A stretch of 64,000 bases of DNA from NCBI RefSeq assembly GCF_963921235.1, contig NC_086108.1, positions 38,442,001 through 38,506,000 of the forward strand, read 5' to 3'. Position 1 is the stretch's first letter. Each line of letters opens with the position of its first letter. The position numbers and the translations under genes are program-made. Of the stretch, positions 3,551 through 64,000 are shown piece after piece. Origin of the DNA: Mobula hypostoma. Taxonomy: Eukaryota. The notes beneath the pieces were generated by a model. The model saw only the letters and a program-made list of their open reading frames with translations, made no database searches and had not been told where the DNA came from.

Positions 3551-4028
3551 AACCTTAGATTGAAGTAAGGATATGTTTACAAACTTTCTAGCAAGTTGAT
3601 CAGCACAAGTCCAAGTAGGCCAATTGCTCACTAAAAGATAGGAGTATGATGGCACTTCTGCCTACATGTACCTCTCAGACATTAGGCTATGCTGATTTGC
3701 AATCATGGTAGTGAAATTATTGGCATTCACTGTTGCTGCATGAACCTGACACTTCAGTTTTTCACACTTGAATTCCTATGATAATTCTGGAGTTGCAGTC
3801 AGAAAATCAGCACAGCTCTACCAGGTTAAGTCCTTGCATACCAAAATGAAACAAAAAGAGGAAAAATACAAAATAGTTGAATCCATGAAGAGTTAAGACA
3901 TTTACGAATTGGTCCTATTGTAAAATAATCTGAAAATCTCATTCTTTACAACTGGAGTTTTTAGGCAGCTGATCAGCCACTATTACTACCTAGAAAACCA
4001 GTTTGCTGAGTAGTATATGAGGTTAGTA

Positions 4029-4815
4029 ACACGTACAAAATGCGAGAGGAACTTGGCAAATCAGTCAGACATTTATGGAGAGGAATAAATAGTTGATGTT
4101 CCAGGTCAAGACCCTTCATCAGGACTCGAAAGGAAGGTGCAGAAGCTATAATAAGAAAGTAGAGAAGATGGGTGGTCTCTTATACTGTCATGATAATGCT
4201 AAAGTCAGGTTAAGTCAAGGGTTCCCAACCTAGGATCCACAGATCCTTTGCTTATTGGTATTGGTCCATGGCATAATAAAGGTTGGGACCCCGGGTTAAA
4301 GGAACAACATATTCAAACTGGAGAGCCTCTAACCCGATGCCATGAACAGCAATTTCTCTAACTTCAGGTAATTACTCCCTCATCACCCCTTCTCTCTTTT
4401 TCCATTCCCCATTCTGGTTACCATCTCACCCCTTCTCTTTTTTGCCTTCCTCTGGTTCTGCTCCTTCTTCCCTTCCATGGTCCACTGTCCTCTCCCATCA
4501 GTTTCCTACTCCTTCAGTCCTTTATCTCTTCTACCTATCATCTCCCAGCTTCTTATTTCATTCCCCTCCACCCCACTACCCACCCACCTTCCCTCTCACC
4601 TGGTCTCACATCACCCACCAGTTTGTACCCCTTCTGCTCCCCTCTCACCCACATTTTCTTATTCTGGATCTTACCCCCTTCTTTTCCAGACCCGATGAAG
4701 GGTCTCAGGCTGAAACTTCGACCATTTATCCCTCTTTCTGAGTTCCTCCAGCATTTTGTGTGTGTGTCTGTGTGTGTTGCTCAACATTTCCAGCATCTAC
4801 AGAACCTCTTGTGAT
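4029..4815 (+). mobile_element. Penelope-like element remnant with inverted terminal arm (interrupted by MITE 4216-4293)
   Basis: 4300-4370 resembles the GIY-YIG C-terminus (EQH..LESL*PDAMNSNFSNFR*). It is followed by a pyrimidine-rich tract and the terminal motif ccgatgaagggtctc...gaaac...gagttcctccagcattttgtg; a reverse-complement copy of that terminus lies at 4029-4170. Confidence 0.7.
4216..4293. mobile_element. hAT-type MITE (same family as 299-372)
   Basis: TIRs CAAGGGTTCCCAACC / GGTTGGGACCCC; flanks ggttaagt / ggttaaag. Confidence 0.75.
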
Positions 4816-5309
4816 TATTTGTCTACAAATGTCTATTACAATTTGCTCATGTGAAAAGTTCGAAATGTATTTAAAATTTTTTAAATGTTATAATATTTGA
4901 AATTTTCAGCTACCATTTCAATGTGTACATTCCAAACTTATTTCAAATTCTATAGATAAATAAAAACATTGCTTCATCCTTTATAGTTTGCTGTCTGTAG
5001 AATTCTTTAATGTAACTATCTTTTCATCCTTCATATAGCAGTAATAGCAGCTGGATAGCTAGGATCTCTTTGAAATGGTGCCTCACAACAGGTATTAGGA
5101 AAAGGTAGCTTTCAGAACAGGTTATTTAGGCAAACTTGAAACACAAGGGAGATGCAGATACATCTAATTTGCACATTAATATAAAGATCATCAAGTAAAT
5201 GTCTTTGGTCCAGTTGATCCACCATTTTCTCTAACTTCAGATAACTATTCCCCCATCTTCACTCAGAGCACCATGCAAGTGTAGACCAAGCTGTCAGTAC
5301 AAGTGGTGC

Positions 5310-15989: not shown

Positions 15990-16095
15990 TTGTTTTCTCA
16001 ATTTTTCAGTTCTGATGAAGGGTCTTCAGCCCACAACATCAACTCTTTCTCCTTTCAAAGACACGCTGATCTGCTGAACACTTGCAGCATTACAT
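15990..16095 (+). mobile_element. Degenerate Penelope-terminus fragment
   Basis: cagttctgatgaagggtcttcagccc...ctgctgaacacttgcagcatt. Confidence 0.55.
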
Positions 16096-29547: not shown

Positions 29548-29646
29548 AGAGTTCTGATGAAGGGTCTTGGCCCAAAAATTCAACTGTTTGCACTTCTTCA
29601 TGGATGCTGCTCGGCCTGCTGAACCCTCCAGTATTTTGTGTGTGTT
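29548..29646 (+). mobile_element. Penelope-terminus fragment
   Basis: gttctgatgaagggtcttggccc...gatgctgctcggcctgctgaaccctccagtattttgtg. Confidence 0.65.
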
Positions 29647-33219: not shown

Positions 33220-33316
33220 AACACACATAAAATACTGGAGGAACTCAGCAGGTCAGGCAGCATCATGGAAATGAATAAAGAGTCAATATTTCAGGCTGAG
33301 ACCCTTCTTCAGGACC
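33220..33316 (-). mobile_element. Penelope-terminus fragment
   Basis: aaatactggaggaactcagcaggtcaggcagcatc...gagacccttcttcaggac. Confidence 0.7.
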
Positions 33317-41160: not shown

Positions 41161-41383
41161 CAAACCTTCAGCCGTGAATGGACCTTCAATATTGCTTGAA
41201 TTCTACTACGTTCTATTTATAAGTTACCAAGCTCAGAAATTGCAAATCAAGGTGCTGACTGTGTTTAGCTGTGACAGCAAGGAATTACACATGATGTGTA
41301 ACTACATATGTATCTCAAATGATGATGCTAAGACATTATAATCACATGACTTATCAACATAATCGTATACAAATACATCATAG

Positions 41384-41795
41384 TGTCACAAGGACGTTGC
41401 GGTGGAACAAACTCAAGTGCCGAACATGGGTGCGAGGCAGAGTCGGGAGGTGTTACGGTCGTAGCGAGCATGGAATTGGTGTCCAAGAGAATCTTTACCA
41501 GGAGTCTTGGTTTTAGTAGCAAATTCAGGAATGATGCTAGACTTAGAACTGATAGTCCTAAGAAGCATAGAACGAGGTTACTCATACACACGTCGACCAA
41601 TGAACTGGCAGCTCCTTGTTGCAATCACAGGGCCTTTATCCTGCAGTTTCTGATGGGAAGCATCACTAGTTCCACTAACAACACACACGGTGTAGTTAGT
41701 GGAACCTGGGAATGATTGGAAATTAAATGAGGTGATTGAGGCCCAATTCCTGCAGTAAATAGCAAGGTGGGGCATTGCCAGAAGGGACCATGACA
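41384..41795 (-). repeat. 3' LTR of sushi-type element
   Basis: Direct repeat of 46040-46430, preceded on the sense strand by a polypurine tract. Confidence 0.9.
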
Positions 41796-42128
41796 GTATC
41801 CCCCCCGCCCCCAGCGGGAGCTTCCAGGCAATCCTCCAGGCCTGTCTGGATGGTCCCGATGAAAGTCCTGGATGAGGGAAGGGTCTAGGATGAAGGAGCG
41901 GGGGACCCAGGAACGCTCTTCTGGACTGTATCCTTCCCAGTCCACCAGGTATTGGAAACCCCTGCCCCGACGGCGCACATCTAGTAGTCGTCGGACGGAG
42001 TATGCCAGATGGTTGTCGATGATACGGGCAGGTGGGGGAGTCTCAGCTGGGGGACACAAGGGGCTGACGGAAACTAGCTTTAACTGAGACATGAAAAGTT
42101 GGGTGGATACGCATGGATCTAGGCAGCT

Positions 42129-43385
42129 TTAGGCAGACTGCTGCCTAAACCTCAAATGGTCCCAGGAAGCAAGGGGCGAGTTTTCTATGTTCGTTCTTGA
42201 GCGGAATGTCCTTGGAGGAAAGCCACACCATCTGCTTAGGTTGCTACTCCTCAGTAGGGCCATGCGTGTCTCCTCCCAAATCTTAAGGCAACGATCAATA
42301 TGGTCCTGAACCGACGGTACCGCAATCTCCTCTTCTTGCACGGGGAACAGTGGGGGTTGGTACCTAAGGGAGCACTCGAACGGAGACCTTCCAATGGCAG
42401 AGCTCACCAGAGAGTTGTGGACATACTCAATCCATGAGAGGTGGTCGCTCCAGGTCAATGGGTTGTTTGCTGTTACACAACGGAGCGTCGCCTCCAGGTC
42501 TTCGTTGACCTGCTCCGTCTGCCCGTTCGTCTGGGGGTGGAAGCCGGATGACAGGCTGACCGATGCGCCTAAGGCTTGACAGAAAGCCTTCCATACTTGC
42601 AAGACGAACTGGGGACCTCGATCGGAGACGATGTCCGCGAGGATTCCGTGGAGGTGGAAGATGTGGCGGACGAGAAGATCTGTGGTTTCCTGAGAGGAAG
42701 GAGGTTTAGGGAGGGCCACAAAGTGCACCACCTTGGAGAATTGGTCCACCATGGTGAGGACAGTGGTGTTTCTGCGGGAAGGGGGTAGACCAGTGACAAA
42801 GTCTAGGGCGATGTGTGAGCAGGGACGACCAGGGACAGGTAGAGGACAAAGCAGACCTGCAGGTGGTCGATGAGAGACCTTTCCCCGGGCACAGGTGGAA
42901 CAAGCTGAGACACAAGGATGGGTGTCCCCCTCCATGGACGGCCACCAAAAGTGCTTCCTCAGGAGAGCCAGGGTCTGATCACTCTCGGGGTGGCAGGCGA
43001 ACCGGGATGTGTGCCCCCATTGGAGAACCTGGGACCTGACGGAGACGGGCACGTACAGACGATCGCAGGGTCCATTGCCCGGGTCAGGGTCGTCCCGCTG
43101 GGCTTCCTTTACTTTAGACTCCATTTCCCAAGTGAGGGTGGCAACCACGCAGGATAGTGGGAGGATAGTCTCGGGACTGGAGGTGTCATCCTTGGAGTCA
43201 TGCTGGCGGGATAGCGCATCCAACTTCCTGTTCTTGGATCCCAGATGGTACGTGAGGGTAAGCTTGAACCATCCAAAAAACAATACCCAACGGGCCTGGC
43301 GGGAGTTCAATCGTTTGGCAGTCTGAATATACCCCAGGTTCTTATGATCAGTCCACACCACAAATGGGTGTCCTGCCCCCTCCAA
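42129..43385 (-). pseudogene. Gypsy pol fragment: RNase H end plus integrase
   Basis: WTDHKNL, HHCC (H..HP..CSTC), [23 protein letters not shown]; frameshifted before the chromodomain. Confidence 0.9.
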
Positions 43386-46039
43386 CCAGTGCCTCTATTC
43401 TTCCAGAGCTAATTTGACCGCCAATAGTTCCGGATTCCCCACGTCGTAATTCCGCTCGGCGGGGGACAGTCAGCGAGAGTAGAAGGTGCAGGGGTGAAGC
43501 TTTTTGTCCCAACTTGACCGTTGGGATAGGACCGCTACTACTCCAGAGTCAGAGGCGTCCACCTCAACAATGAATTGACAGGATGGGTCCGGAGGGCCAG
43601 AATGGGAGCGGTGGTGAAACGCCTCTTCAGGTTGATGAGTGCTGAGTCCGCTTCGGAGTCCCAACAAAATGGTCTGGTAGACGAGGTAAGCTGGGTAAGG
43701 GGGCTGCCACTCGACTGTAGTCTCTGATGAATCTACGATGGAAGTTTGCAAACTCCAGGAATCGTTGAAGTTGTTTGCATGTCGTGGGTCTAGGCCATTC
43801 TTCCACTGCCTGGTTCTTCTCGGGGTCTGCTTTTACCTATCCGCTTTCAATGATATAGCCTAGGAAGCTGACCGAAGGAATGTGGAACTCACATTTCTCC
43901 GCCTTTGCAAATAATTGGTTTTCCCACAGTCTCTGGAGGACTTGACAGATATGGTGTACGTGTTCTTGGGGGCTGCTAGATATCATCAAGGTAAACAAAT
44001 ACGAACCAATTGATAAAGTCCCTCAGTACGTCATTGATCAGGGTTTGGAAAACGGCGGGGGCAAATATTCAAAGTGGCCCAGAGGTGTATTGAAGGCCAT
44101 CTTCCATTCGTCCCCCTCCCTCATCCTAACTAAATGGTAGGCGTTGCAAAGGTCCAGCTTTGAGAAGATGGTAGCTCCATGCAGTGGTTCAAATGCCGGA
44201 CTAATGAGGGGAAGAGGGTAATGGTTCTTACCTGTTATATTATTTAGGCCTCGGTAGTCCACATAGGGGGTGAAGCGTTCCATCCTTCTTTTCTACAAAA
44301 AAGAAACTGGCGCCTACCGGGGAGGATGAAGGCCTGATAATGCCCGCCGTGAGGGACTCGCTAATGTATTTCTCCATTGCCTCTCTCTCCGATCGGGATA
44401 GGTTAAAAAGGTGACTGGTGGGTAGCGGGGCCCCGGGGAGAAGGTCGATGGCACAATAATATGGGAGGTGCAGAGGCTGGGAAAGGACCCGTTGTTTACT
44501 GAACACCTGTCCCAAGTCATGGTGCTCTGTGGGGACGCGGGACAAGTTGAGGGGTTCCAAAACAGGCGGGGTCACGATGGCTTCTCTGGGAGATGGGGCT
44601 GACCGCAGACAGTTGGCATGGCAAGACGGACTCCATTCGGCTATCCTCCCTGTAGACCAGTCGATATGGGGATTGTGTTGGGTCAGCCATAGATACCCTA
44701 GAACTACCGGGGTTTGAGGTGAATGAATGAGACTGAATCATACCTCCTCCTGATGGTTGCCAGATAGGATCAAGGGGCGGCGTACAGTGGGTCACCCGAG
44801 CCAACAGTCTTCCGTCCAGGGCCCGGGCCTCCAGGGGGGTGGTTAGCGGCTCGCGAGGTATTCCAGCCTGGATGGCTATCTCTTCGTCTAGCAGATTGCC
44901 CTCAGCACCGGAATCCGCCAAAGTGGATGGGGACAGGGACTGTTGTTGGTAATTCATGGTTGCCGGGATCTACATCCAAGTCTGGGGTGGTGAAGGGACT
45001 ATCATTCGGCTCACCACAGCTCCCTTTCTCACTGGTGAGCCCTCCATTTTGGCCGCTGAGGGCAGGTATCCTGGCTGGCCACAACAGTAGCAATCCCTAG
45101 CTCTCCAGCTCCGAATTCGTTCAGCCGGGGGGAGACGGTTCCATCCCAGCTGCATCGGTTCCTCCCACAGGGGGGTGGGGACGGTTGGAGCAGGAGCCAC
45201 ACTGGGAGCGGCTAGGGAAGGGGGACTGGCTGAGACTGGTAAGGTGGACTGAGGGCTTCCTCGAGGAGCGGAGCGACTGGTTCTCTCTCTCTGACGCTCC
45301 TGAAGTCGATAATCTAATCGAATGGCTCGCGAGATCAGAGAGTCCAGACAGTCCATGTCGTCCCTCGCGGCCAACTCATCCTTTGTCTTGTCTGAGAGGC
45401 CCTGTCGAAACACCTCCCGTAGGGCCTCGTCATTCCACCCGGAGTCTGCGGCTAAGGTCCGGAACTCAATTGAATACCAGAGTAAGCAACCATTTCACAG
45501 CGTCCTTACCACAAATGGATTGTTCGAAGACTTTCCTCATTTCAGCGGCAAAGGAGAAGTAGGAGGAACAAACCTCTGGTCGGTTATCCCATATCGCAGT
45601 TGCCCGAGCCAAGGCATCCCCTCCTAGCAGCCCCATGATGTACGCAATCTTTGACTTATCTGAAGTGTAGGTACATGGCTGCAGCTCAAAGACTCGGGAG
45701 CATTGTAACAGGAAGGCCCAGTACCTACCTAGGTCCCCGGCGTAGGGTTCAGGCTCGGGTACATACAGCTCTCAAGGGGGTGGTGTTGCTGATTCCAGGG
45801 GCGAGGCTATCCCGAGCGATGCGGTTTGGATAGCTGGGGTTCCAGGAGGGGATGGAGAAAAGGAAGCGGAGACCCAGTCCACTTGTTCACTGACCTTCTG
45901 CACATTCGTGGATAGTGTCCAAAGTTTTTCTGTGATCTCCCAAAGTAGTGAGTTGTTGGCCCCCAACAGGTAGCCCTGGCTGGCCAGGGCCTGTTGTACG
46001 GGATCCGTGTCTGCTGGGTTCATCGTGGCCAGTTCGTTC

Positions 46040-46430
46040 TGTTACAAGGACGTGGCAGTGGAACGAAACCAAGTGCTGAACAGGGGCACGGAGACCGAGT
46101 CTGGAGGCATTACAGTCATAGCAAGCGTGGAATTGGTGTCCAAGAGAGTCTTTACCAGGAGTCTTGGTTTTAGTAGCGAATTCAGGAACAATGCTAGACT
46201 TAGAACTGATAGTCCTAAGAGCCATGGAACGAAGTTACTCATACGCGAGTCGACCAACAAACTGGCAGCTCCTTGTTGCGATCACAGGGTCTTTATTCTA
46301 CAGTTTCTGATGGGAAGCAGGTGTGTGTAGTTAGTGGAACCTGGGAATGATTGGAAATTAAATGAGGTGATTGAGGCCCAATTCCTGTGGTAAATAGCAA
46401 GGTGGTTGATTGCCAGAAGGGACCATGACA
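46040..46430 (-). repeat. 5' LTR of sushi-type element
   Basis: Direct repeat of 41384-41795; gag ATG 17 nt downstream at 46023. Confidence 0.9.
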
Positions 46431-47694: not shown

Positions 47695-48518
47695 ATTGTT
47701 TGAAGACAATTGAGGTGAAAAACCAGAAATTAAGAAAAACTTTGAAGGTCCAAGTATTTTAAAATCTGAAGTTCATAATGCAATAAATAAGATGAAGAAA
47801 GGAAAGGCAGCAGGTCCTGATGAATTAGTAATAGAACAAATTATCTCCCTTAAAGATGATGGAATTGAAATACTTATTGATTTAATCAATGACATTTATG
47901 AGACTGGAATAATGCCAGAAGAGATGAAAAAATCGCAATTATGACTCTTCCAAAGAAACCTGGAGCAATAGAATGTGAATTACATAGGACCATAAGTTTA
48001 TTGAGTCATATCACCAAGATACATCTAAGAATTTTGATGACAAGAGCTAAAAGTAAGATACAAGCTGAAATAGGCAAAGAACAATCTGGTTTTGTGAAAG
48101 ACAAAAGTACAAGAGACGCAATATTGATGTTAAGAATACTATCAGAACGAGCTATTCAAGTGCATAAAGATTTGTTTGTTTGTTTTATCGACTACAAAAA
48201 AGCATTTGATAAAGTGAAGCACAATACATTATTTGAAATATTACAGAAAACTCTAGATCTAGATTCGAAAGACCTCCACCTAATCATAAATCTGTACTGG
48301 GAACAAACTGCTGCTGTAAGAATAGATGGAGAAGTGAGTCTGTTTACGAAAATCAAGAGAGGCATTAGACAAGGGTGTGTTTTCTCCCCTGATTTATTTA
48401 AGGTATACAGTGAAACAATATTACAGAAAACAGGAGACACCTTGGGAATCAAAGTTGGTGGTGAAAACATCGATAACTTTAGATATGCAGATGACACTGT
48501 GTTAATTGCAAGTATGGA
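47695..48518 (+). mobile_element. RTE-clade LINE reverse transcriptase fragment
   Basis: KMKKGKAAGPDE, LPKKPGAIECELHRTISLLSH, FIDYKKAFDKV, GIRQGCVFSPDLF, FRYADDTVLIA. Confidence 0.85.
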
Positions 48519-51292
48519 GGTCTGTCTGGGTGGTAGGTTGGAAAAGGAGCTTGTTTTGCTGTTGTTGTTGTCTTGTTTCATTTTGTTGTTGTTGTTGTTG
48601 CTGCTTGTGTTATTCTGCTGAATATCTTGGGCATGCTATGTTAGCGCTGGAATGTGTGATGTCACTTGTGAGCTACACCCAGCACATCGTTAGGTGTATA
48701 GCTTGTTAACTCAAACAATGCCTTTCACTGTATGTTTTATTGTACATGTAATAAATGAATCTGAATCTGAGTGAAGCCATAATAGTACTCAACTACTTCA
48801 ACTCCAGCCAGGAAAAGCAGCCGGTTTGATCAGGACTCACGCCACAGCAACCAATAAACAAGCCTTGCAACAGAAACTTACTATAACTTCAAAATGTATG
48901 ATTTGCAATGTTCAGTGGAAGAACTTATCAAGTGTACTTCAACAGCAATTCTCTCTCTGAAGTATCAAGGCAGGGATAAAATATCTATGAACGCTACCAT
49001 CTCCAAGCTTCTCCCTGAGTCATTCGCCATTTTTGCATTAGACTGTATAATCTTTGCAGTTTAACATTTATGCCTGCCTGTATCTTATAAAGCTACCTAT
49101 TTACTGTACCTGTACATCTTTAATTTGTTCCCTAGTTATCACGGTGTGTACCGCATAAGCAAATGTTCAGTGTGTCCTCTAGTGAATACAGTTCATTATA
49201 TCATTCTGGATGCTTCTCTGGTGTCACGTTATTTGAATAGGGGCTATCTGATTGGTTATCTCTTATCTACAAATTTGAATAGAATATGTTTCATCTATGG
49301 GCTATAAGAAAAGCAGAGCATGGAGGCTTTCCATCTTTATTCTTGTCCTTCCTTTCTCCTCTGGTCTTAGACTCATGTTATTCCCCATTTCCAATTCTCT
49401 TTGTTCTATTAGTGCTTAATAAAATGTTCGTGAAACAACAAGTTTAAGTCTCTTTCTTGGCTACTGAAAGAACCTTGGCTCAAAAACATCAGAATCCAAC
49501 AATTTGGTTAAATCAGCAAAGATGGTTGCAAAGATTTAAAGACTCAGAACAATCCCAGGTAAAGTGGAAAATTTCAGCACCTAAATTTAAAAGGAGTTAA
49601 AAGCTTCCAAATTGAGGCAATATTAGAACAAATATTAGAAAGCTCTGTGGGGTCTTCAAGGGGGTGGTTCTGCTATTGATGCTTCTTTTGAAACTTCTCC
49701 TTGGGAAACACACCCCCTCCCCTTTCTCCTACCAATGTGTAGGACCATACATTTCCTGTCACTGTATTCCATTTGCCACCCCTTTGACCAAGTCCTTTTG
49801 TAGTCTCTCTACCTCCTCAAATCTAGTTACCCCTCCACCTATCTTCGTATCATCTGAAAACTTTGTGATGAAGCCATTCTGCCATTCGAGTCGTTGACAT
49901 TTAATGTTAAAAGAAGTGGTCCCAACACAGACTCAAGAGGAAAACCAGTAGTCACCGACAGCCAACCAGGAAAGACTCTCTTTATTCCCACTCTTTGCGT
50001 CCTGCCAATTAGCCACTGCTTTATCCTTGCTAGTACTTTTCTTGTAATACCATGGGCTCTTAACTTGTTAAACAGCCTCATGTGTGGCAACTCTTCTGAA
50101 AATCCAAGTACATAAAATTCGCCAATTCTCCTTCATCTATTCTGCTTGTTATTTCTTCAAAGAATTTCAACAGATTTGTCAGGCAAGATTTTCCCTTGAG
50201 GAAACCATGCTGACCACAACTTATTTTATCTGTCTCTCCAAGTACCCCAAAACCACATCCTTAACAATCAACTCCAATACTTTCCCAACCACTGAGGTCA
50301 GACTAACTGCCCTATAATACCCTTTCTCCTGCCTCTCTCCCTTCTTGAAGAGTGGAGTGACATTTGTAATTTTCCAGTCTTCCAGAACCATCCCAGAATC
50401 AGGTATTTCTTGAAAGATCATTGCTAATGCCTCCACAATCTCTTAAGCCACCTCTTTCAGAACCCTGGGGTGTAACCCTTCTGGTCCAGGTGACTTATCT
50501 ACCCTCAGACCTCTCAGTTTCACATGAACCTTCTCCCCAGTAATGGCAACTTCATGCACTTCTGACACCTAACACACTCGAACTTCCAGCATACAGTACT
50601 GCTAGTGTCTTCCACAGTGAAGACTGGTGCAAAATACTTATTTAATTTGTCCCCCATTATTGCCTCTCCAGAATTGTTTTCCAGTGGCCCAATATCCTTT
50701 TAAACTTTATGTATCTGAAGAAATTATTGGTATCCTCTTTAATATTATTGGCTAACTTACATCCGTATTCCATCTTTTCCTTCTTAATTACTTTTTTAGT
50801 TGCCTTCTGATAATTTTTAAAACCTTCCCAATCCTCTAACTTCCCACTAATTTTTGCAATATTATATGCCCTCTCTTTGGCTTTTATATTGGCATTGACT
50901 TCTCTTAGCCACGGATGTGTCATCTTGTCTTTAGAATACTTCTTCCTCTTCAGAGTGTATATATCCTGTGCCTTCCGAATTGCTGTTGGAAATTCAAGCC
51001 ATTGTTGTTTTACTGTCATCTCTGCCAGTGTCCTTTTCCAATCAATTTTAGCCAGCTCCTCTCTCATGCTTCTGTAATTCCCTTTACTCCACTGTAATAC
51101 TGATACATCTGACTTTAGCTCTCATCAAATTTCACAGTGAATTCTATCATATTCTGCTCACTTTCCTCCAAGGGTTATTTTACCTTAAATTCTGTAGTCA
51201 ATTCTGAGTCATTGCACAACACACAACCTAGAATAGCTGATCCCCTAATGGGCTCAACCACAACCTGCTCTAAAAGGTCATCTTGTAAGTAT

Positions 51293-52111
51293 GTAAACAC
51301 GAGGAATTCTGCAGATGCTGGAAATTCAAGCAACACACATCAAATTTGCTGGTGAACGCAGCAGGCCAGGCAGAATCTCTAGGAAGAGGTACAGTCGACG
51401 TTTCGCTCCGAGACCCTTTGTCAGGACTAACTGAAGGAAGAGCTAGTAAAAGATTTGAAAGTGGGAGGAGGAGGGGGAGGGGGAGATCCAAAATGATAGG
51501 AGAAGACAGGAGGGGGAGGGATAGAGCCAAGAGCTGGACAGGTGATTGGCAAAAGGGATATGAGAGGATCATGGGACAGGAGGCCCAGAGAGAAGGAAAA
51601 GGGGGAGGGGGGAAAAACCCAGAGGATGGGCAAGGGGTATAGTCAGAGGGACAGAGGGAGAAAAAGAAGAGAGAACAAAAGAATGTGTGTATATAAATAA
51701 ATAACGGATGGGGTATGAGGGGGAGGTGGGGCATTAGCGGAAGTTAGAGAAGTCAATGTTCATGCCATCAGGTTGGAGGCTACCCAGACAGAAGGTGTTG
51801 TTCCTCCAACCTGAGTTGGTTTACAATAGAGGAGGCCGTGGATAGACATATCAGAAATTCTCCCTGAGTCTCCTGTCCCATGATCCTCTCATATCCCTTT
51901 TGCCAAACACCTGTCCAGCTCTTGGCTCCATCCCTCCCCCTCCTGTCTTCTCCTATCATTTTGGATCTCCCCCTCCCCCTCCCACTTTCAATCTCTTACT
52001 AGCTCTTCCTTCAATTAGTCCTGACGAAGGGTCTCCGCCCGAAACGTCGACTGTACCTCTTCCTAGAGATGCTACCTGGCCTGCTGCGTTCACCAGCAAA
52101 TTTGATGTGTG
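51293..52111. mobile_element. Penelope-like element with ~255-bp inverted pLTR arms
   Basis: 51334-51590 is the near-perfect reverse complement of 51860-52111. The spacer encodes (minus) LEEQHL..LGSLQPDGMNIDFSNFR* (GIY-YIG C-terminus). Flanks catcttgtaagtat / caccttgtaggtat are TSD-like. Confidence 0.85.
52017..52052 (+). ncRNA. Minimal type I hammerhead ribozyme motif in Penelope pLTR
   Basis: AGUC-CUGACGA-A-GGG(UCUCCG)CCC-GAAA-C-GUC-GACU: stem I AGUC/GACU, intact core, stem II GGG/CCC, loopless palindromic stem III (ACGU); predicted cut after 52048. Confidence 0.75.
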
Positions 52112-52566
52112 CACCTTGTAGGTATTCTAGAAATTCCCCTTCTTGGGATTCAGCACCAACCTGATTTTTCCAATCTACCTGTATATTGAAGTCCCTCCTG
52201 TCTACTGTAACATTGCACTTTTGGCATGTATTTTTTATTTCCCATTGTAATTTATAAATCACATCCTCACTACAGATTGGCAGGCTGTATATATGTCCCA
52301 TCAGGGTCTTTTTACCCTTGCAGTTCCTTAGTTCTACCCACAATGACTCAACACCTTCCAACCCTATGTCACCTCTTTCTAATGTTTTGATTTCATTTTT
52401 CACCAACAGAGCCACACCTCTCAAGCTGCCTACCTGCCAGTCCTTTCGATGAAATGTGTATCCTTGGACATTCAGCTCTCAACTATAATCTTCTTTCAGC
52501 CATGATTCAGGATGCCTACAACATCGTACATGCCAATCTATAACTGTGCTACAATACATCTACCTT

Positions 52567-52842
52567 AAACACAAAATAATCTGCAGATGCTGGGGTCAAA
52601 GCAACACTCACAACACTCTGGAGGAACTCAGCAGGTCAGGCAGCATCCGTGGAAATGATGAGTCGACGTTTCGGACCAGAACCCTTCGTCAGGACTGTAG
52701 AGGGAAGGGGCAGAGGGAAGATGTGGCGGAGACAGAGGAACTGGGAATAGGGAATGGCATTTTTGCATGTGGCGGGGTGGAAAGAGGTATATTCGAGGTC
52801 ATTATGAGAGTCAGTAGGCTTGTGGGTTTGACAGTGAGTTTG
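52567..52842 (-). mobile_element. Penelope-like fragment (RT C-terminal piece plus terminus)
   Basis: YTSFHPATCKNAIPYSQFLCLRHI resembles the Penelope post-RT motif; terminus as in 51293-52111. Confidence 0.75.
52661..52696 (-). ncRNA. Minimal hammerhead ribozyme motif
   Basis: Minus strand AGUC-CUGACGA-AGGG(UUCUGG)UCC-GAAA-CGUC-GACU, core intact. Confidence 0.7.
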
Positions 52843-52844
52843 AC

Positions 52845-53837
52845 ATAACATCTCTGCCAGCATCCTGGATCAAAGTCAAGGCTAAGTACCCTGAGATAGC
52901 CACGAAAGCACTGAAAACGTTGCTTCCATTTCCAACCTATCTCTGTGAAGCAGGGTTTTCTGCAATGAATGCAATGAAAACTAAATTGCGGAATAAACTG
53001 GACATAAGGAACTCCCTTCGAGTATCAGTTTCTCCCATCACCCCTCGATGGGACTGTCCTGTTGCAGGGAAACAAGCCCAGGGCTCCCACTGATTCAGTG
53101 ATCTTGGTGTGTTGCAATGATTTTATATGTTCATATGGGGAAAATATGTGCTGTGTGTTTAATATCCAAATGTTGCTTAAAATGTTATGATGCTATTGAC
53201 TTATAAGTGACTTATAATTGACTTATCACTATATTCATGCAAGGAAAATATGCGCTGTGTGCTTAAAATTAAATTTGTTAGATAAACCCTTTTAGAAATG
53301 AAATTGAGTGTATTAGCCACTTATAAGTGACTTATAGTTGACTTATAGTTGATTCCCCACTAAGGTAGAGAATTCCTATGAAACCATTCATGCTGAAATG
53401 GCGTAAAGTGAAGAAGCAATTACCATTAATTTATATGGAAAAAATTTTGAGCGTTCCCAGGCCCAAAAAAAAACCTACCAAATCATACCAAATAACACAA
53501 AACCTAAAATAACACTAACATATAGTAAAAGCAGGAATGATATGATAAATACACAGCCTATATAAAGTAGAAATAATGTATGTACAGTGTAGTTTCACTG
53601 AACAGAAGCTTCAAAAACGATTGGTAGAAAAAAATCGGCACGTACACGCATAGGCACACAGGTGCCCGTGCAAGGCTTCATGGTCATTGTAGTCTTTCTC
53701 GGGGTAAACACAACGTATTTGACTGCTACTTCTGTCCGTTGGCAACCCTCCCCCTCCCCCCCACCGGGTCGGCCCGTCCACAAGAATATTTTCAATAATA
53801 AACCAGTCTGCAGTGCAAAAAAGGTTGGGGACCCCTG
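52845..53837 (+). mobile_element. hAT Charlie-type transposon 3' end (contains a Tigger fragment at ~53355-53595)
   Basis: 52845-53093 translates ITSLPASWIKVKAKYPEIATKALKTLLPFPTYLCEAGFSAM...KQAQGSH* (hAT dimerization domain); TIR GGTTGGGGACCCCTG ends at 53837. Confidence 0.85.
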
Positions 53838-54666: not shown

Positions 54667-54824
54667 TCACGAAATGCATCATTCAGCGACTGTCCAAAAG
54701 CAGTGTTCATACAATTGCTTCAGCACTGCCACAAACTGTGAAATAGACTCGCCTTCCTCTTGATTCCTTTTATGAAACCTCTCAGCAATAAGGTTTAGGT
54801 GAATAGTGGTCCTTTAAGACTTTA

Positions 54825-54944
54825 CAAACAAGAGAATATCTGCAGATGCTGGAAATCTGAGTAGCACACACACGAAACATCAACTGTACTCTTTTCCACA
54901 GATGCTGCCTGGCCTGCTGAGTTCCTCCAACATCTCATGTGTGT
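54825..54944. mobile_element. Short inverted Penelope-terminus insertion with 15-bp TSD
   Basis: TSD TCCTTTAAGACTTTA at 54810-54824 and 54945-54959. Confidence 0.75.
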
Positions 54945-54994
54945 TCCTTTAAGACTTTAACGATGTCCTCATAAGGTTTATTGCCAGGGCTTAG

Positions 54995-59151: not shown

Positions 59152-59784
59152 TATTTTATATAACCTTGAGGTTCATCTCTATACAGACAGTTACAAAACA
59201 AAGAGACCCAATAGAATCCATTAAAACAAAAGACAGTCAAACACCCAATGTGCAGAGAAAAAGCATGCAAACAATAACAGTAAGCAAATAGCATTGAGAA
59301 CTAAAGTTCACAGAAGTGAGTCCACAATGTGATACTTGCAGGCCATGACCACAGTTTGGCGCAGAGATAAGTAAACCTCACCTAGCAGCAATTTGAACTG
59401 GCCCTGACATCCTGTTCTTTTCAATTTGGCCCGGTGCTTAAATCATCCAGACCTTGCTCTCGAACCTGGATTCTACCACTGTGGGATGCTCTTGGGCTGT
59501 TGCTCTGCCACCTCAGTTCAGCCCATACCCAACTTTTCCACTTCAGTTTGGTGTTTAAATCAATCAAACCTCAGGTTGTTCCCTGCTCTCTGGCACGGAC
59601 ACCGCCGCCTCGCTTGTGTACGTACACGCCACTGAGCAACCATCCTGAACCTTTGAGACCTCAGTTCTGACCACAAAAATGCCAGGTCATACGGGTGGTT
59701 CAAAAGTTCAACTCCAATGGGGAAGTTACGGTCTATTGTTTGCAGGGATCACTCAGCAGAAAAAGTGTAATTAATGAAGTATTT

Positions 59785-59904
59785 CAATCACAAACAAGAG
59801 AAAATCTGCAGATGCCGGAAATCCAAGTAACACACACAAAATGTTGACTGTACTCCTTTCCATAGATGCTGCCTGGCTTGCTGAGTTCCTCCAGCATTTT
59901 GTGT
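59785..59904. mobile_element. Short inverted Penelope-terminus insertion
   Basis: Same architecture as 54825-54944; TSD-like ttaatgaagtattt / ttaatgaagttttt. Confidence 0.7.
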
Positions 59905-60212
59905 TTAATGAAGTTTTTGTTGTTTTCTTTGTTCTATTTGCCACCAGAAAGCAGTCACTGAGGTTCACCAGCGCTATCTTAAATCAAAAGTTTAAGAGCT
60001 GTTTTAAGGCAAGGCTGGGAAAGCACCCCCAATATATTCACAAGACTCACAAGGAAAAGGCACACAGAGATATACAAACTCTTTGATCTCTTGTCTCAAC
60101 ACAGCTTGTTTTTTTTTCAAACACATTCTGTGTCCATTGATCAATTAGCTACTCTAATGGTCACTCCCCATTATCTTGCAGCACACAACATTCCTTTGGA
60201 CTTACATAAGTA

Positions 60213-60791: not shown

Positions 60792-61827
60792 CAGGTTTCC
60801 CCCGCCATCCAAAGGTAGAGCGTTCCTATGAAATGGTTCGTAAGCCGGAAGGTCATAAAGCAAAGAAGCAATTACCATTTATTTATATGGGAAAAATTAG
60901 TGAGCATTCACAGACCCAAAAATAACCTAGCAAATCATGCCAAAAAACACATACAACCTAAAATAACAGTAACATATAGTAAAAGCAGGAATGATATGAT
61001 AAATACACAGCCTATATAAAGTAGAAATACTTCTCTACAATCATTGCCTGCACTGTTCTCCGTAGCGAAAATCTCACGCAAGTGCTCTCGGCAAAAACAC
61101 TCTCTCCAGTAACCTTTAAGCTATGAAGCTGCCAAATCATACCAAATAATGCATAAAAATACACAGCCTATATAAAGTAGAAATCATGTATGTACAGTGT
61201 AGTATCACTTACGGGAATCAGGAAGACAGCGAGCACACTGATGGTGGTGTGTTAGGCTGAGTCGTCAGAGGTTGGGGTGGTGCAGTGGTCCCAACCTGCG
61301 GGCAGCGAACTGATATCGATCAGCGGAGGATTCAGCGGTCCAGCAGTGGCCAGGATGCACCCAGCACATCTTTAAGAAAAAAGCTGAAATAAACCAGCTA
61401 ATTAATTAGGTGCCGCCCAGCACGTAAATGCCGGCCCAGATCGGAGTCGACACAATCAGCAATCACCTCTGATCTGGGCTGACATTTACGTGCCGGGCGG
61501 CACCTAATTAATTAGCTTGTTTATTTTGGCTTTTTTCTTAAAGATGTGCTGGATGTGTCCCGGCTACTGCTGCATTCTTCACAGATCAGTATCTATCTGT
61601 GGCCGGGGGATTGGGGTGGTGGGACACGGGGGTGTCATCTCATTGATCAGGGCAGGCAGGTCATCTTCTCCTATGACTGCCTGCCTCAATGTCAAAGGTT
61701 GAGGTTCGTCGTCTGCTGTGGCGGATGTGGAAGGCTTGCTTGACTGTTTAGCCTTACGCATTTTTAGATTACACAGTTCTTTGTAAGGACTCAAACCATC
61801 CTGCAAATATACCCTAAACCGACATAC
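60792..61827 (-). mobile_element. Second Tigger/pogo copy (opposite orientation), inserted at a TA in the SB-like transposase and interrupted by Gypsy
   Basis: TA|CAGGTTTCCCCCG start; colinear with the reverse complement of 58080-59151. Confidence 0.85.
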
Positions 61828-64000
61828 TGTAGCGGTGTGCTACACACAGCGCTAGAATAATCACACGGAGTCGGTGAGTTGGAGTTGCGATAAAGAGAGA
61901 TTTATTCAAACTTCGCGGCCTGCTTTAAAGCCTTCCTGTTCCCACCCTCCCTGGGCGGGACTGCTGTGGGGAATGCATATTCCCAGACCCTTTCTGCATG
62001 CAGGATTTTCCCTCTGCTGGTGAAGATGGCCAGGCGCCCTCTTTGGGGCCGGCCCTCTGCCTGCGCACGCTGTTGTGAGCCAGTTCGTGTGTGCTAGAAA
62101 GTGGGTCGCCACATAACGCCCCCCCCCCACAGAACCGGCGATACCTCCCCCAATGTCCACAGTCTGGATCGGCCTCTGTTTGGGAGGTCTGCCCCTGCGC
62201 CGCGGTGCCTGAGCCTGGACCGGCTGTGCCAAGTCCACATGGGCCAGTTTGAGTCGGTCCACCGTGAAAACCTCCTCTCTCCCGCCAATGTCCAGCACGA
62301 ACGTGGACCCGTTGTTCCTGATCACCTTAAACGGCCCCTCGTAGGGCCCCGTTGTACAAAAAGAAACTTACAGTTCTGCAGGTCTTTGGGTACGCAGGTT
62401 GGGCTCTGTCCATGGTGTGAAGTGGGTATGGGGGCCAGGTTACCGAGCCTCTCACGTAGTCTGTCCAGGACTGCTGCGGGTTCTTCCTCTTGCCCCCTTG
62501 GGGCTGGTATGAACTCTCCTGGGATGACCAGGGGCGCGCCGTACACCAACTCGGCCGACGAGGTGTGCAGATCCTCTTTGGGCACCGTGCGGATTCCGAG
62601 CAGGACCCAGGGAAGCTCGTCCACCCAGTTAGGCCCCTCCAGGCGGGCCATGAGAGCCGATTTCAGGTGACGGTGGAAGCACTCCACTACTCCGTTCGAC
62701 TGTGGGTGGTAGGCAGTTGTGTGGTGTAGCTGTGTTCCTAAAAGGCTGGCCACAGCCGATCACAGGCTGGAGGTGAACTGGGCTCCCCTGTCGGAGGTAA
62801 TGTGGGCCGGTACCCTGAAGCGGGCTACCCAGGTTGCGATCAGTGCTCGGGCGCAGGATTCGGAGGTGGTGTCGGTGAGCGGGACTGCCTCTGGCCATCT
62901 GGTGAAGCGGTCTATCATAGTTAGGAGGTACCGCGCTCCTCGCGGCACTGGCAGGGGCCCCACGATATCCACATGAATGTGGTCGAACCTCCGGCGGGTG
63001 GGTTCGAACTGCTGTGGCGGAGCCTTGGTGTGCCGCTGCACCTTGGCCGTTTGGCACTGCATACACGTTTTGGCCCATTCACTGACCTGTTTACGCAGTC
63101 CATGCCACACGAACCTGTTGGAGACCAGCCGGACGGTTGTCCTGATGGAGGGGTGCGCTAAGTTGTGAATGGACTCGAAAACCCGCCGGTGCCAGGCTGC
63201 TGGGACGACGGGGCGGGGTTGGCCGGTAGCGACGTCACATAGGAGGGTCCCCTCACCTGGGCCTATGGGGAGGTCTTGGAGCTGTAAACCGGAGACTGCA
63301 GTCCTGTAACTGGGGATCTCAGCGTCTGCCTGCTGTGCCTCTGCCAGCGCTGCATAGTCCACCCACTGGGACAGGGCCTGTATGGTACGTCTGGAAAGTG
63401 CGTCCGCCACGACTTTGTCCTTTCCCGAGACATGCCGGATGTTCGTCGTGTACTTGGAGATGTAGGACAGATGTCGCTGCTGGCGGGACGACCAGGGGTT
63501 GGACACCTTAGTGAACGCAAATGTAAGCGGTTTGTGGTCTGTGAACGTGGTGAAGGGCCTACCTTCTTAGAAGTACCTGAAATGCCGGATTGCCAGGTAT
63601 AGTGCTAATAGCTCCCGGTCGAAAGCACTGTATTTGAGTTCAGGTGGTTGTAGATATTTGCTGAAGAACGCCAGGGGTTGCCAGCGACCCTCGATGAGCT
63701 GCTCCAGCACTCCACCGACCGCTGTGTTGGATGCGTCCACCGTGAGGGCAGTAGGAACGTCCGTTCTGGGGTGCATTAGCATCACGGCGTTTGCCAGGGC
63801 TTCTTTGGTTTTAACGAAAACGGCTGCAGCCTCTTCGTCCCAGGTAATGTCCTTGCCCTTACCTGACATTAGAGTGAACAGGGGGCGCCTGGTTCGGGCT
63901 GCTGAGGGGAGGAAACGGTGGTAGAAATTCACCATACCCACGAATTCCTGCAGGTCTTTGATTGTGTTGGGTCGGGGGAAGTTGCGGACCGCGTCTACCT
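61828..64000 (-). mobile_element. Gypsy LTR retrotransposon (3' LTR 61828-62113; RNase H and integrase), continues beyond the window
   Basis: LTR TGTGGCG...CGCTACA with G10 PPT at about 62119-62128. LTVDAS..YSAFDRELLA (RNase H); H.LAHP..C..C, HIHVDIVGPLP, ITSDRGAQF, YHPQSNG..E (integrase). CpG-rich with only a few lesions. Confidence 0.92.

What the first reader, a model, noticed from the sequence alone, without database searches (positions are those of the whole stretch)
51293..52111. Fold-back Penelope element with hammerhead ribozyme cores on both arms
Seen: two ~255-bp inverted arms surround a GIY-YIG C-terminal remnant. The plus arm carries AGUC-CUGACGA-AGGG..CCC-GAAA-CGUC-GACU with all core nucleotides. 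The minus arm (51393-51428) has a G8-to-A change and a broken stem II. Stem III is only the self-complementary ACGU with no loop. Established: Penelope-like pLTRs carry minimal hammerheads that are thought to cleave as dimers. Inference: this abundant repeat family (about 8 cores in 64 kb, near 4092, 4688, 16010, 29552, 33281, 51393, 52017, 52661) is a self-cleaving RNA family, and transcription through it would also give long dsRNA.
Basis: partly seen in the sequence, partly recalled or inferred. Interest (0 to 1): 0.7.

Follow-up and report, generated by a model that had tools for sequence, protein, structure and literature searches.

The report
Truncated Penelope retrotransposon with minimal hammerheads
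This is a broken, folded-back copy of a common Penelope-type jumping gene in a ray-like fish genome; its ends carry the small self-cutting RNA motif already known from such elements, so it is a real but ordinary feature.

Summary
Observation confirmed. 51293-52111 is one insertion with a 14-bp target-site duplication (12/14). It is a 5'-truncated Penelope-like element (minus strand: GIY-YIG C-terminal remnant, pLTR, 41-nt tail) joined head-to-head to an inverted, tail-less pLTR; the arms are 241/261 identical. Relatives of the remnant are ray proteins with a Neptune-type linker, related to RT+GIY-YIG ORFs. The plus arm matches the published minimal hammerhead consensus. The minus arm's G8A and stem II breaks are decay: laid family contigs mostly carry G8 and a paired stem II. 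Of 8 cores in the window, 3 pass a minimal-hammerhead descriptor (0.01 per shuffle). The same layout, including two minimal hammerheads on opposite strands 100-700 bp apart, is in Cervera and de la Pena 2014 and Craig 2021. The two cores cannot dimerise within one transcript. Read-through RNA is predicted to bury the intact core in duplex. No copy clearly starts at the cut site. Cleavage and transcription of this locus are untested. The scan noted similar elements in two other shark-like genomes.

The parts
51279..51292 (.). left target-site duplication (14 bp)
   Evidence: 12/14 identical to 52112-52125 and abutting both element ends; P about 4e-6 for one fixed register. In a looser +-30 nt search its score of 8 is reached by 7 of 300 random pairs.
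51293..51333 (-). 41-nt 'tail', the distal 3' end, present on this arm only
   Evidence: absent from the right arm; family loose ends pile up at 51294/51295 (282+614 contigs in X5, 43+89 in X11)
51334..51594 (-). left pLTR arm (3' end of the truncated copy)
   Evidence: 241/261 identical to the right arm
51393..51428 (-). defective minimal hammerhead: G8A at 51419, stem II mismatches at 51406 and 51407; cut-site triplet intact
   Evidence: by summed contig depth the family has G8 (70% X5, 97% X11) and the stem II letters (96-100%)
51595..51733 (-). remaining 3' untranslated region between the stop codon and the duplicated arm
   Evidence: sequence; covered by family contigs
51734..51856 (-). 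C-terminal remnant of the Penelope-like GIY-YIG endonuclease, stop codon at 51736-51734, broken by short deletions near 51793 and 51819, 5'-truncated at about 51856
   Evidence: tblastn with P0001; piecewise translation; family contigs carry extra letters at both breaks and continue past 51856
51853..51861 (.). head-to-head inversion junction, with a 4-bp-arm palindrome (weak)
   Evidence: sequence
51858..52111 (+). inverted 5'-truncated pLTR arm ending at the proximal end, no tail
52017..52052 (+). intact minimal type I hammerhead; predicted cut 52048/52049
   Evidence: passes the descriptor; matches the consensus in PMC4209133 Fig. S3
52112..52125 (.). right target-site duplication
   Evidence: the flanks joined without the element and one duplication give a frame open for 29 codons
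52566..52824 (-). separate internally deleted copy of a sister subfamily: tail, intact core at 52661-52696, RT-region fragment at 52720-52824
   Evidence: (66% identity to P0001 residues 76-110)
4025..4817 (.). older fold-back of the family: minus arm with broken core 4091-4126, plus arm with ORF remnant, broken core 4688-4723 and tail; no clear target-site duplication
54825..54944 (.). 120-bp mini fold-back: inverted tail joined to a tail-less arm starting at C11.1; exact 15-bp duplication (54810-54824 / 54945-54959)
59785..59904 (.). second mini fold-back with the same junction; duplication 13/14 (59771-59784 / 59905-59918)
33281..33316 (-). solo copy, core intact, AUU triplet
29550..29585 (+). 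solo copy, G12A
16008..16044 (+). solo copy, G12 and A13 changed

Best explanation
A dead-on-arrival insertion of an endonuclease-positive Penelope-like retrotransposon, most likely Neptune clade, in a ray-like genome. Shown: boundaries, target duplication, 5' truncation, inverted pLTR, one-sided tail, ORF identity, and a family-majority intact minimal hammerhead. Inferred mechanism: the element's RT-GIY-YIG protein nicks both strands about 14 nt apart and primes reverse transcription from each nick on uncleaved element RNA. One cDNA starts at the distal start site (tail included) and the other at the proximal one. The two are joined at their far ends, which gives head-to-head arms. The hammerhead is a passenger of the pLTR: in the active, tandem source element it probably cleaves slowly, as a dimer through the palindromic ACGU or with protein help. 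In this copy it decays neutrally and would be masked by the antisense arm in any read-through RNA.
For: Target duplication and open host frame. Family 3' end at 51294/5. The remnant matches P0001, a Mobula hypostoma predicted protein with YxDD, a CX4CxxC linker and GIY-YIG (Pfam E 4.6e-4, below the cutoff). Of 46 longer relatives of P0001, 37 carry RVT_1 and 8 carry RVT_1 plus GIY-YIG. The descriptor finds 3 loci against 0.01. Among the 8 copies the 36-nt motif is 75% identical, against 46% upstream and 52-56% downstream (27 pairs, the arm-arm pair left out). All 4 fold-backs in the window have the tail on one arm only, and 3 of 4 have 14-15 bp duplications. Copies run across the cut site, so the template was uncleaved, as in PMC11167929. 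The layout is published in PMC4209133, PMC8557442 and PMC3846280.
Against: No cleavage assay. No significant covariation in 8 copies. No Rfam match. Nearest-neighbour folding favours an inactive rod for the monomer (-11.8 against -7.8 kcal/mol) and the dimer (-26.8 against -14.5); that model ignores core tertiary contacts and no control ribozyme was folded. No intact autonomous ORF of this exact family was retrieved: the best long relatives are 52% identical or less. The two-primer mechanism rests on 4 events and on in vitro data from a Poseidon-clade element. In PMC11167929 the start site did not differ between strands, so the one-sided tail is not explained there.
Confidence: 0.88

Rival explanations
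1. Same element, different origin of the inversion: self-priming on an antisense template or cDNA fold-back, as proposed for rotifer Penelope elements, rather than two target-primed events.
For: PMC3846280 argues this from palindromes at head-to-head junctions. A 4-bp palindrome sits at this junction. Both arms share a minority letter at 51345 (the family has the other letter at 86% in X5 and 98% in X11), which fits a common template.
Against: The junction palindrome is short. The inverted arm copies sequence from the 3' end, not sequence next to the junction. A common template also fits two-primer synthesis on one source element's RNA.
Confidence: 0.25
2. The fold-backs, above all the 120-bp ones, are a non-autonomous family that moves as a unit.
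For: The two mini fold-backs share size and junction, with the tail-less arm starting at C11.1.
Against: The two larger fold-backs differ from the minis in arm length and junction. Microhomology between the reversed proximal end and the GAAAC segment (5 of 7 letters by eye) could make the same junction recur. Only two minis were seen.
Confidence: 0.12
3. This locus itself works as a host RNA element: self-cleavage at 52048/52049, or a long dsRNA feeding editing or small-RNA silencing.
For: The plus-arm core is intact. The whole element folds at -544 kcal/mol, against about -250 for 15 mononucleotide shuffles. The family is present in a run guessed to be RNA (7,611 contigs).
Against: No listed piece spans the stretch, and the listed pieces carry many differences, so they come from other copies. 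A>G places number 15 in both the DNA-guess and the RNA-guess run, so there is no editing signal. Duplex formation hides the ribozyme. The divergence pattern looks neutral.
Confidence: 0.07
4. The motif only resembles a hammerhead and has no catalytic ancestry.
For: No Rfam hit. No covariation signal. An inactive fold is predicted.
Against: It fits each feature of the published consensus, including ones outside the core (U-rich 5' flank, extra base after A9, G10.1-C11.1, palindromic 15.2-16.2). It sits in the pLTR downstream of the ORF. The descriptor gives 0.01 hits per shuffle.
Confidence: 0.03

Closest known systems
Minimal hammerheads (min-HHR) of metazoan Penelope-like elements, Cervera and de la Pena 2014 (PMC4209133)
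   Same: No helix III loop, extra base between 9 and 10.1, G10.1-C11.1, palindromic 15.2-16.2, stem I of 4-5 bp. Dual motifs 100-700 bp apart on opposite strands (here 588 nt). Fig. S4A describes a 5'-truncated copy with a second motif on the opposite strand at its 5' end. The Acropora Neptune motif has the same CUGACGAA core, a 4-bp stem II and the same CG-UC.
   Different: No cartilaginous fish is among the Fig. S3 motifs or Table S1 entries that I read. Stem II here is short (4 bp) compared with the 7-8 bp of Schistosoma.
EN+ PLE insertion unit with pLTR, inverted 5'-truncated copy and one-sided tail (Craig 2021 PMC8557442; Arkhipova 2013 PMC3846280)
   Same: Head-to-head inverted pLTR, tail at one end, target duplication around the whole unit, heavy 5' truncation.
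   Different: The tail is 41 nt (30-40 cited) and the duplication 14-15 bp (8-10 in the rotifer cases read).
Poseidon_Ac of Anolis, the biochemically studied PLE (Frangieh 2024, PMC11167929)
   Same: Two adjacent 3' ends separated by a tail; insertions made from uncleaved RNA; AT-rich flanks.
   Different: Different clade: P0001 has the Zn-finger-like linker that PMC8557442 gives for Neptune and Nematis. Protein-assisted cleavage is untested here.
Non-LTR retrozymes (Li 2026, bioRxiv 10.64898/2026.07.22.740005)
   Same: Type I hammerhead from a PLE pLTR; reported in the one chondrichthyan sampled.
   Different: Retrozymes are head-to-tail tandem arrays. This element is a dispersed inverted unit with ORF remnant and target duplication.

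Membership tests
EN+ Penelope-like element | C-terminal GIY-YIG endonuclease | tested here: met
   The remnant matches the C-terminus of P0001. P0001 and 7 of 10 relatives hit Pfam GIY-YIG, all below the curated cutoff; 10 of 46 longer relatives are annotated PF01541.
EN+ Penelope-like element | RT and endonuclease in one ORF | tested here: met
   Met in relatives, not in this truncated copy: YxDD in P0001; 8 of 46 relatives carry RVT_1 plus GIY-YIG.
EN+ Penelope-like element | pLTR, direct or inverted, with optional tail and target duplication | tested here: met
EN+ Penelope-like element | RT groups with telomerase/PLE RTs in a tree | not tested
   No named reference RTs were on hand; the PDB search with P0001 found nothing significant.
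Neptune clade | CX2-5CxxC linker between RT and EN | tested here: met
   The linker is plain in P0001-P0006 and P0008. It is shared with Nematis, and Li 2026 reports Neptune and Poseidon as the widespread groups in vertebrates. Clade placement by tree was not done.
min-HHR (type I) | CUGANGA, GAAA and UH core with stems I and II | tested here: met
   Met for the plus arm and 2 other copies; not met for the minus arm and 4 others.
min-HHR (type I) | extra base after A9, G10.1-C11.1, palindromic 15.2-16.2 | tested here: met
   against PMC4209133
min-HHR (type I) | covariation in stems | tested here: inconclusive
   90.6% of cells paired; covariation score 0.237, reached by 88 of 500 shuffles; 8 copies, mostly CpG decay.
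min-HHR (type I) | self-cleavage at C17, as dimer or with protein | not testable with these tools
   Needs an assay. No raw RNA reads were available.
Rfam hammerhead families | match to a covariance model | tested here: not met
   No hammerhead among 3 matches at E up to 5.
Non-LTR retrozyme | head-to-tail tandem units each with a hammerhead | tested here: not met
   The 8 cores are dispersed or inverted.

The most novel reading that the evidence does not exclude
The fold-backs record a coupled two-primer insertion by a dimeric PLE protein in which the two subunits obligatorily use different RT start sites (tail on exactly one arm in 4 of 4 events here), with recurrent junctions and 5' ends set by the hammerhead's edges rather than its cut site. 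Ray genomes, at about one core per 8 kb in this window, would then be a very large natural record for testing the unresolved PLE integration mechanism and the role of the ribozyme. The inverted arm would act as a built-in antisense mask that silences the ribozyme.
Probability: 0.2. Interest if true: 0.45.

Novelty: new member of a known kind. Interest (0 to 1): 0.2.

Why it matters
Modest. It adds a very abundant ray Neptune-type family to the list of Penelope-like elements with minimal hammerheads. I found no paper that describes this family in the held library, but Repbase, Dfam and Lunse 2016 could not be checked. The open question in the field is what the PLE hammerhead is for. This locus does not answer it, but a high-copy family with sharp ends and target duplications is good material for genome-wide tests of tail asymmetry, junction microhomology and selection on the core.

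Tried and rejected
No whole genome is held, so no genome-wide consensus or copy number could be made. Two metagenome scans for family motifs found 0. A viral-contig scan gave 9 loci; the motif neighbourhoods printed do not show the family's flanks, so they were dropped. Rfam gave no hammerhead. Covariation on 8 copies was not significant. No RNA holder is on record for the stretch. Raw-read runs X21 and X22 laid 0 reads, so they are no test; X5 and X11 are contigs and show neither ends, strand nor level. The G8 share differs between X5 (70%) and X11 (97%), but these are different organisms, depth-weighted contigs, and RNA is only a guess, so it is not used as evidence of selection. Editing was not supported (A>G places 15 in both runs). 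The idea that cleavage defines 5' ends was rejected for this window: of 14 segments aligned, none clearly starts at the cut; two old fragments begin at +1 and +3, but decayed homology seems by eye to run further upstream. No target duplication was found for the 4025-4817 fold-back (best score 6, within the null). The PDB search with P0001 gave nothing significant. Pfam did not name the host remnant. Lunse 2016 is not held.

Full report
Observation. The inverted arms are real: 51334-51594 and 51858-52111 align at 241 of 261 columns. The plus arm holds a complete minimal type I hammerhead at 52017-52052 with the predicted cut at 52048/52049. The minus arm's motif at 51393-51428 has G8A (51419) and only 2 of 4 stem II pairs. 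Only 3 of the 8 keep all core bases. The same 3 pass a structural descriptor that fires 0.01 times per dinucleotide shuffle (2 of 200 shuffles had one hit). Rfam returned no hammerhead.

Anatomy. A 14-bp duplication (12/14) abuts both sides, and the flanks without the insert give a frame open for 29 codons. The host looks like a CR1/L2-type LINE remnant; that label is recalled, as Pfam did not name it. On the minus strand the insert reads: truncation at about 51856, the broken end of an ORF with its stop at 51736-51734, a 3' region, the hammerhead, a proximal end at 51334 and a 41-nt tail to 51293. The plus arm is an inverted second copy of the last 254 bases without the tail. The arms are therefore head-to-head.

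Identity of the ORF. A search with the remnant returned one protein from one candidate, P0001, a predicted Mobula hypostoma protein. Its C-terminal part finds 15 proteins among 124 candidates; the named ones are from the rays Mobula, Hypanus and Rhinoraja. I infer a ray-like host. P0001 has a YxDD motif, a CX4CxxC linker and a GIY-YIG domain. Of 46 longer relatives, 37 carry RVT_1 and 8 carry RVT_1 plus GIY-YIG, at up to 52% identity. The linker points to the Neptune or Nematis clades (PMC8557442, passages). Neptune is the likely one in a vertebrate (Li 2026); no tree was built.

The family. Laying four runs on 51180-51857 placed 133,318 contigs of X5 and 7,611 of X11, and 0 reads of X21 and X22. 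By summed contig depth, the family has G8 in 70% (X5) and 97% (X11), and the pairing letters at 51406 and 51407 in 96-100%. The minus arm's defects are thus decay, G8A being a CpG-type change; 20 further variant rows were not shown. C11.1 is U in 25% and 42%, which keeps a G-U pair. Loose ends pile up at 51294/51295 with A-rich flanks, which fixes the tail end. Within the window, mismatches fall at CpG columns (25 of 77) more than elsewhere (12 of 175; 7 ungapped copies). The motif is more conserved among copies (75%) than its flanks (46% upstream, 52-56% downstream), though some flanks lie beyond the truncation points. Covariation is not significant on 8 copies.

Other fold-backs. Three more occur: 4025-4817, 54825-54944 and 59785-59904. 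All 4 have the tail on one arm only, and 3 of 4 have 14-15 bp duplications. The two minis join the inverted tail to an arm that starts about 9 nt upstream of the cut site. Three solo copies start 0, 2 and 7 nt upstream of stem I; these ends come from local alignment to one subfamily and are approximate. No copy clearly starts at the cut site.

How it works. Shown: the structure above. From the literature: the anole PLE protein nicks and extends both strands, starts reverse transcription at two internal sites that bound the tail, and uses uncleaved RNA. Its hammerhead cuts only with protein and is not needed for insertion in vitro, and no RNA-seq ends were seen at the cut site (PMC11167929, parts 1-2 of 4 read). 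Minimal hammerheads show no monomer activity and low dimer activity (PMC4209133; introduction, results, discussion and supplement parts 1-2 of 3 read). Inferred: this unit arose from two primed cDNAs that met head-to-head, and its ribozyme is a passenger. The self-priming model of PMC3846280 (passages) remains a rival. The two cores cannot form a cis dimer because they are on opposite strands. In a read-through RNA the arms pair (-544 and -547 kcal/mol; 233 and 247 long-range pairs), and the stem I and II pairs drop to probability 0.000 from 0.86-0.98 in the arm alone. A minus-strand transcript could hold the intact 52661 core and the G8A motif 1,268 nt apart, and the G8A motif keeps its cut-site triplet, but it too would be in duplex if transcription came through the right arm. 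Folding also favours an inactive rod over the open monomer or the double hammerhead; this is a caution, not a test.

What is known. PMC4209133 describes every feature of the motif, dual motifs 100-700 bp apart on opposite strands, and in Fig. S4A a 5'-truncated PLE with a second motif on the opposite strand. PMC8557442 describes the inverted 5'-truncated copy and the one-sided tail as typical. No cartilaginous fish is in the lists I read there. Li 2026 (parts 1 and 3 of 5 plus passages) reports retrozymes in one chondrichthyan; its supplements are closed and may bear on novelty. Lunse 2016 I saw only as a reference and through a review's passages (PMC6765202). Searches for Penelope with shark, cartilaginous fish, elasmobranch or Mobula terms showed no paper on this family in their listings (listings only). 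Two earlier scan notes on other shark-like genomes reached the same reading; they are not independent support.

Verdict. It is a new member of a known kind. Interest 0.2.

Noticed in passing
window 54825-54944 and 59785-59904: Two 120-bp mini fold-backs with the same junction at C11.1 of the hammerhead and clean target duplications; microhomology or a small non-autonomous subfamily could explain them.
   Followed up: partly
window 33318, 29550, 16005: Three solo copies appear to begin at or just upstream of stem I of the hammerhead (0-7 nt).
   Followed up: partly
window about 4208-4291: An insert of about 80 bp with inverted-repeat-like ends interrupts the ORF remnant of the 4025-4817 fold-back; it looks like a small DNA-transposon derivative (recalled, not tested).
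   Followed up: no
window 51345: Both arms share a letter that is in the minority in the family, which hints at a common template.
   Followed up: partly
window 51419 in runs X5 and X11: G8 is at 70% of depth in the DNA-guess run and 97% in the RNA-guess run, while the tolerated C11.1-to-U change is common in both; not interpretable from contigs of two organisms.
   Followed up: partly
window about 41350-46330 and 61900-64000: GC-rich LTR-retrotransposon remnants with integrase domains (Pfam rve and Integrase_H2C2; RT_RNaseH in the first).
   Followed up: partly
window 47902-48618: Reverse transcriptase frame (Pfam RVT_1, E 6.5e-20), probably another LINE remnant.
   Followed up: no
window 53126-53362: Two copies of a unit of about 104-120 bp with internal 11-bp tandem repeats.
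   Followed up: no
window 61406-61507: A long hairpin of about 100 nt (weak Rfam miRNA match, 31 bits against a cutoff of 99), possibly a MITE.
   Followed up: no
L005:501-525 and L008:501-523: Two viral contigs hold hammerhead-like cores matching the short pattern; their flanks do not resemble this family.
   Followed up: no
P0003, P0005, P0007, P0014, P0015: Several named ray gene models (for example a neuromedin-U receptor and a chitinase-domain protein isoform) include pieces of this element's ORF, either by exonisation or by annotation error.
   Followed up: no
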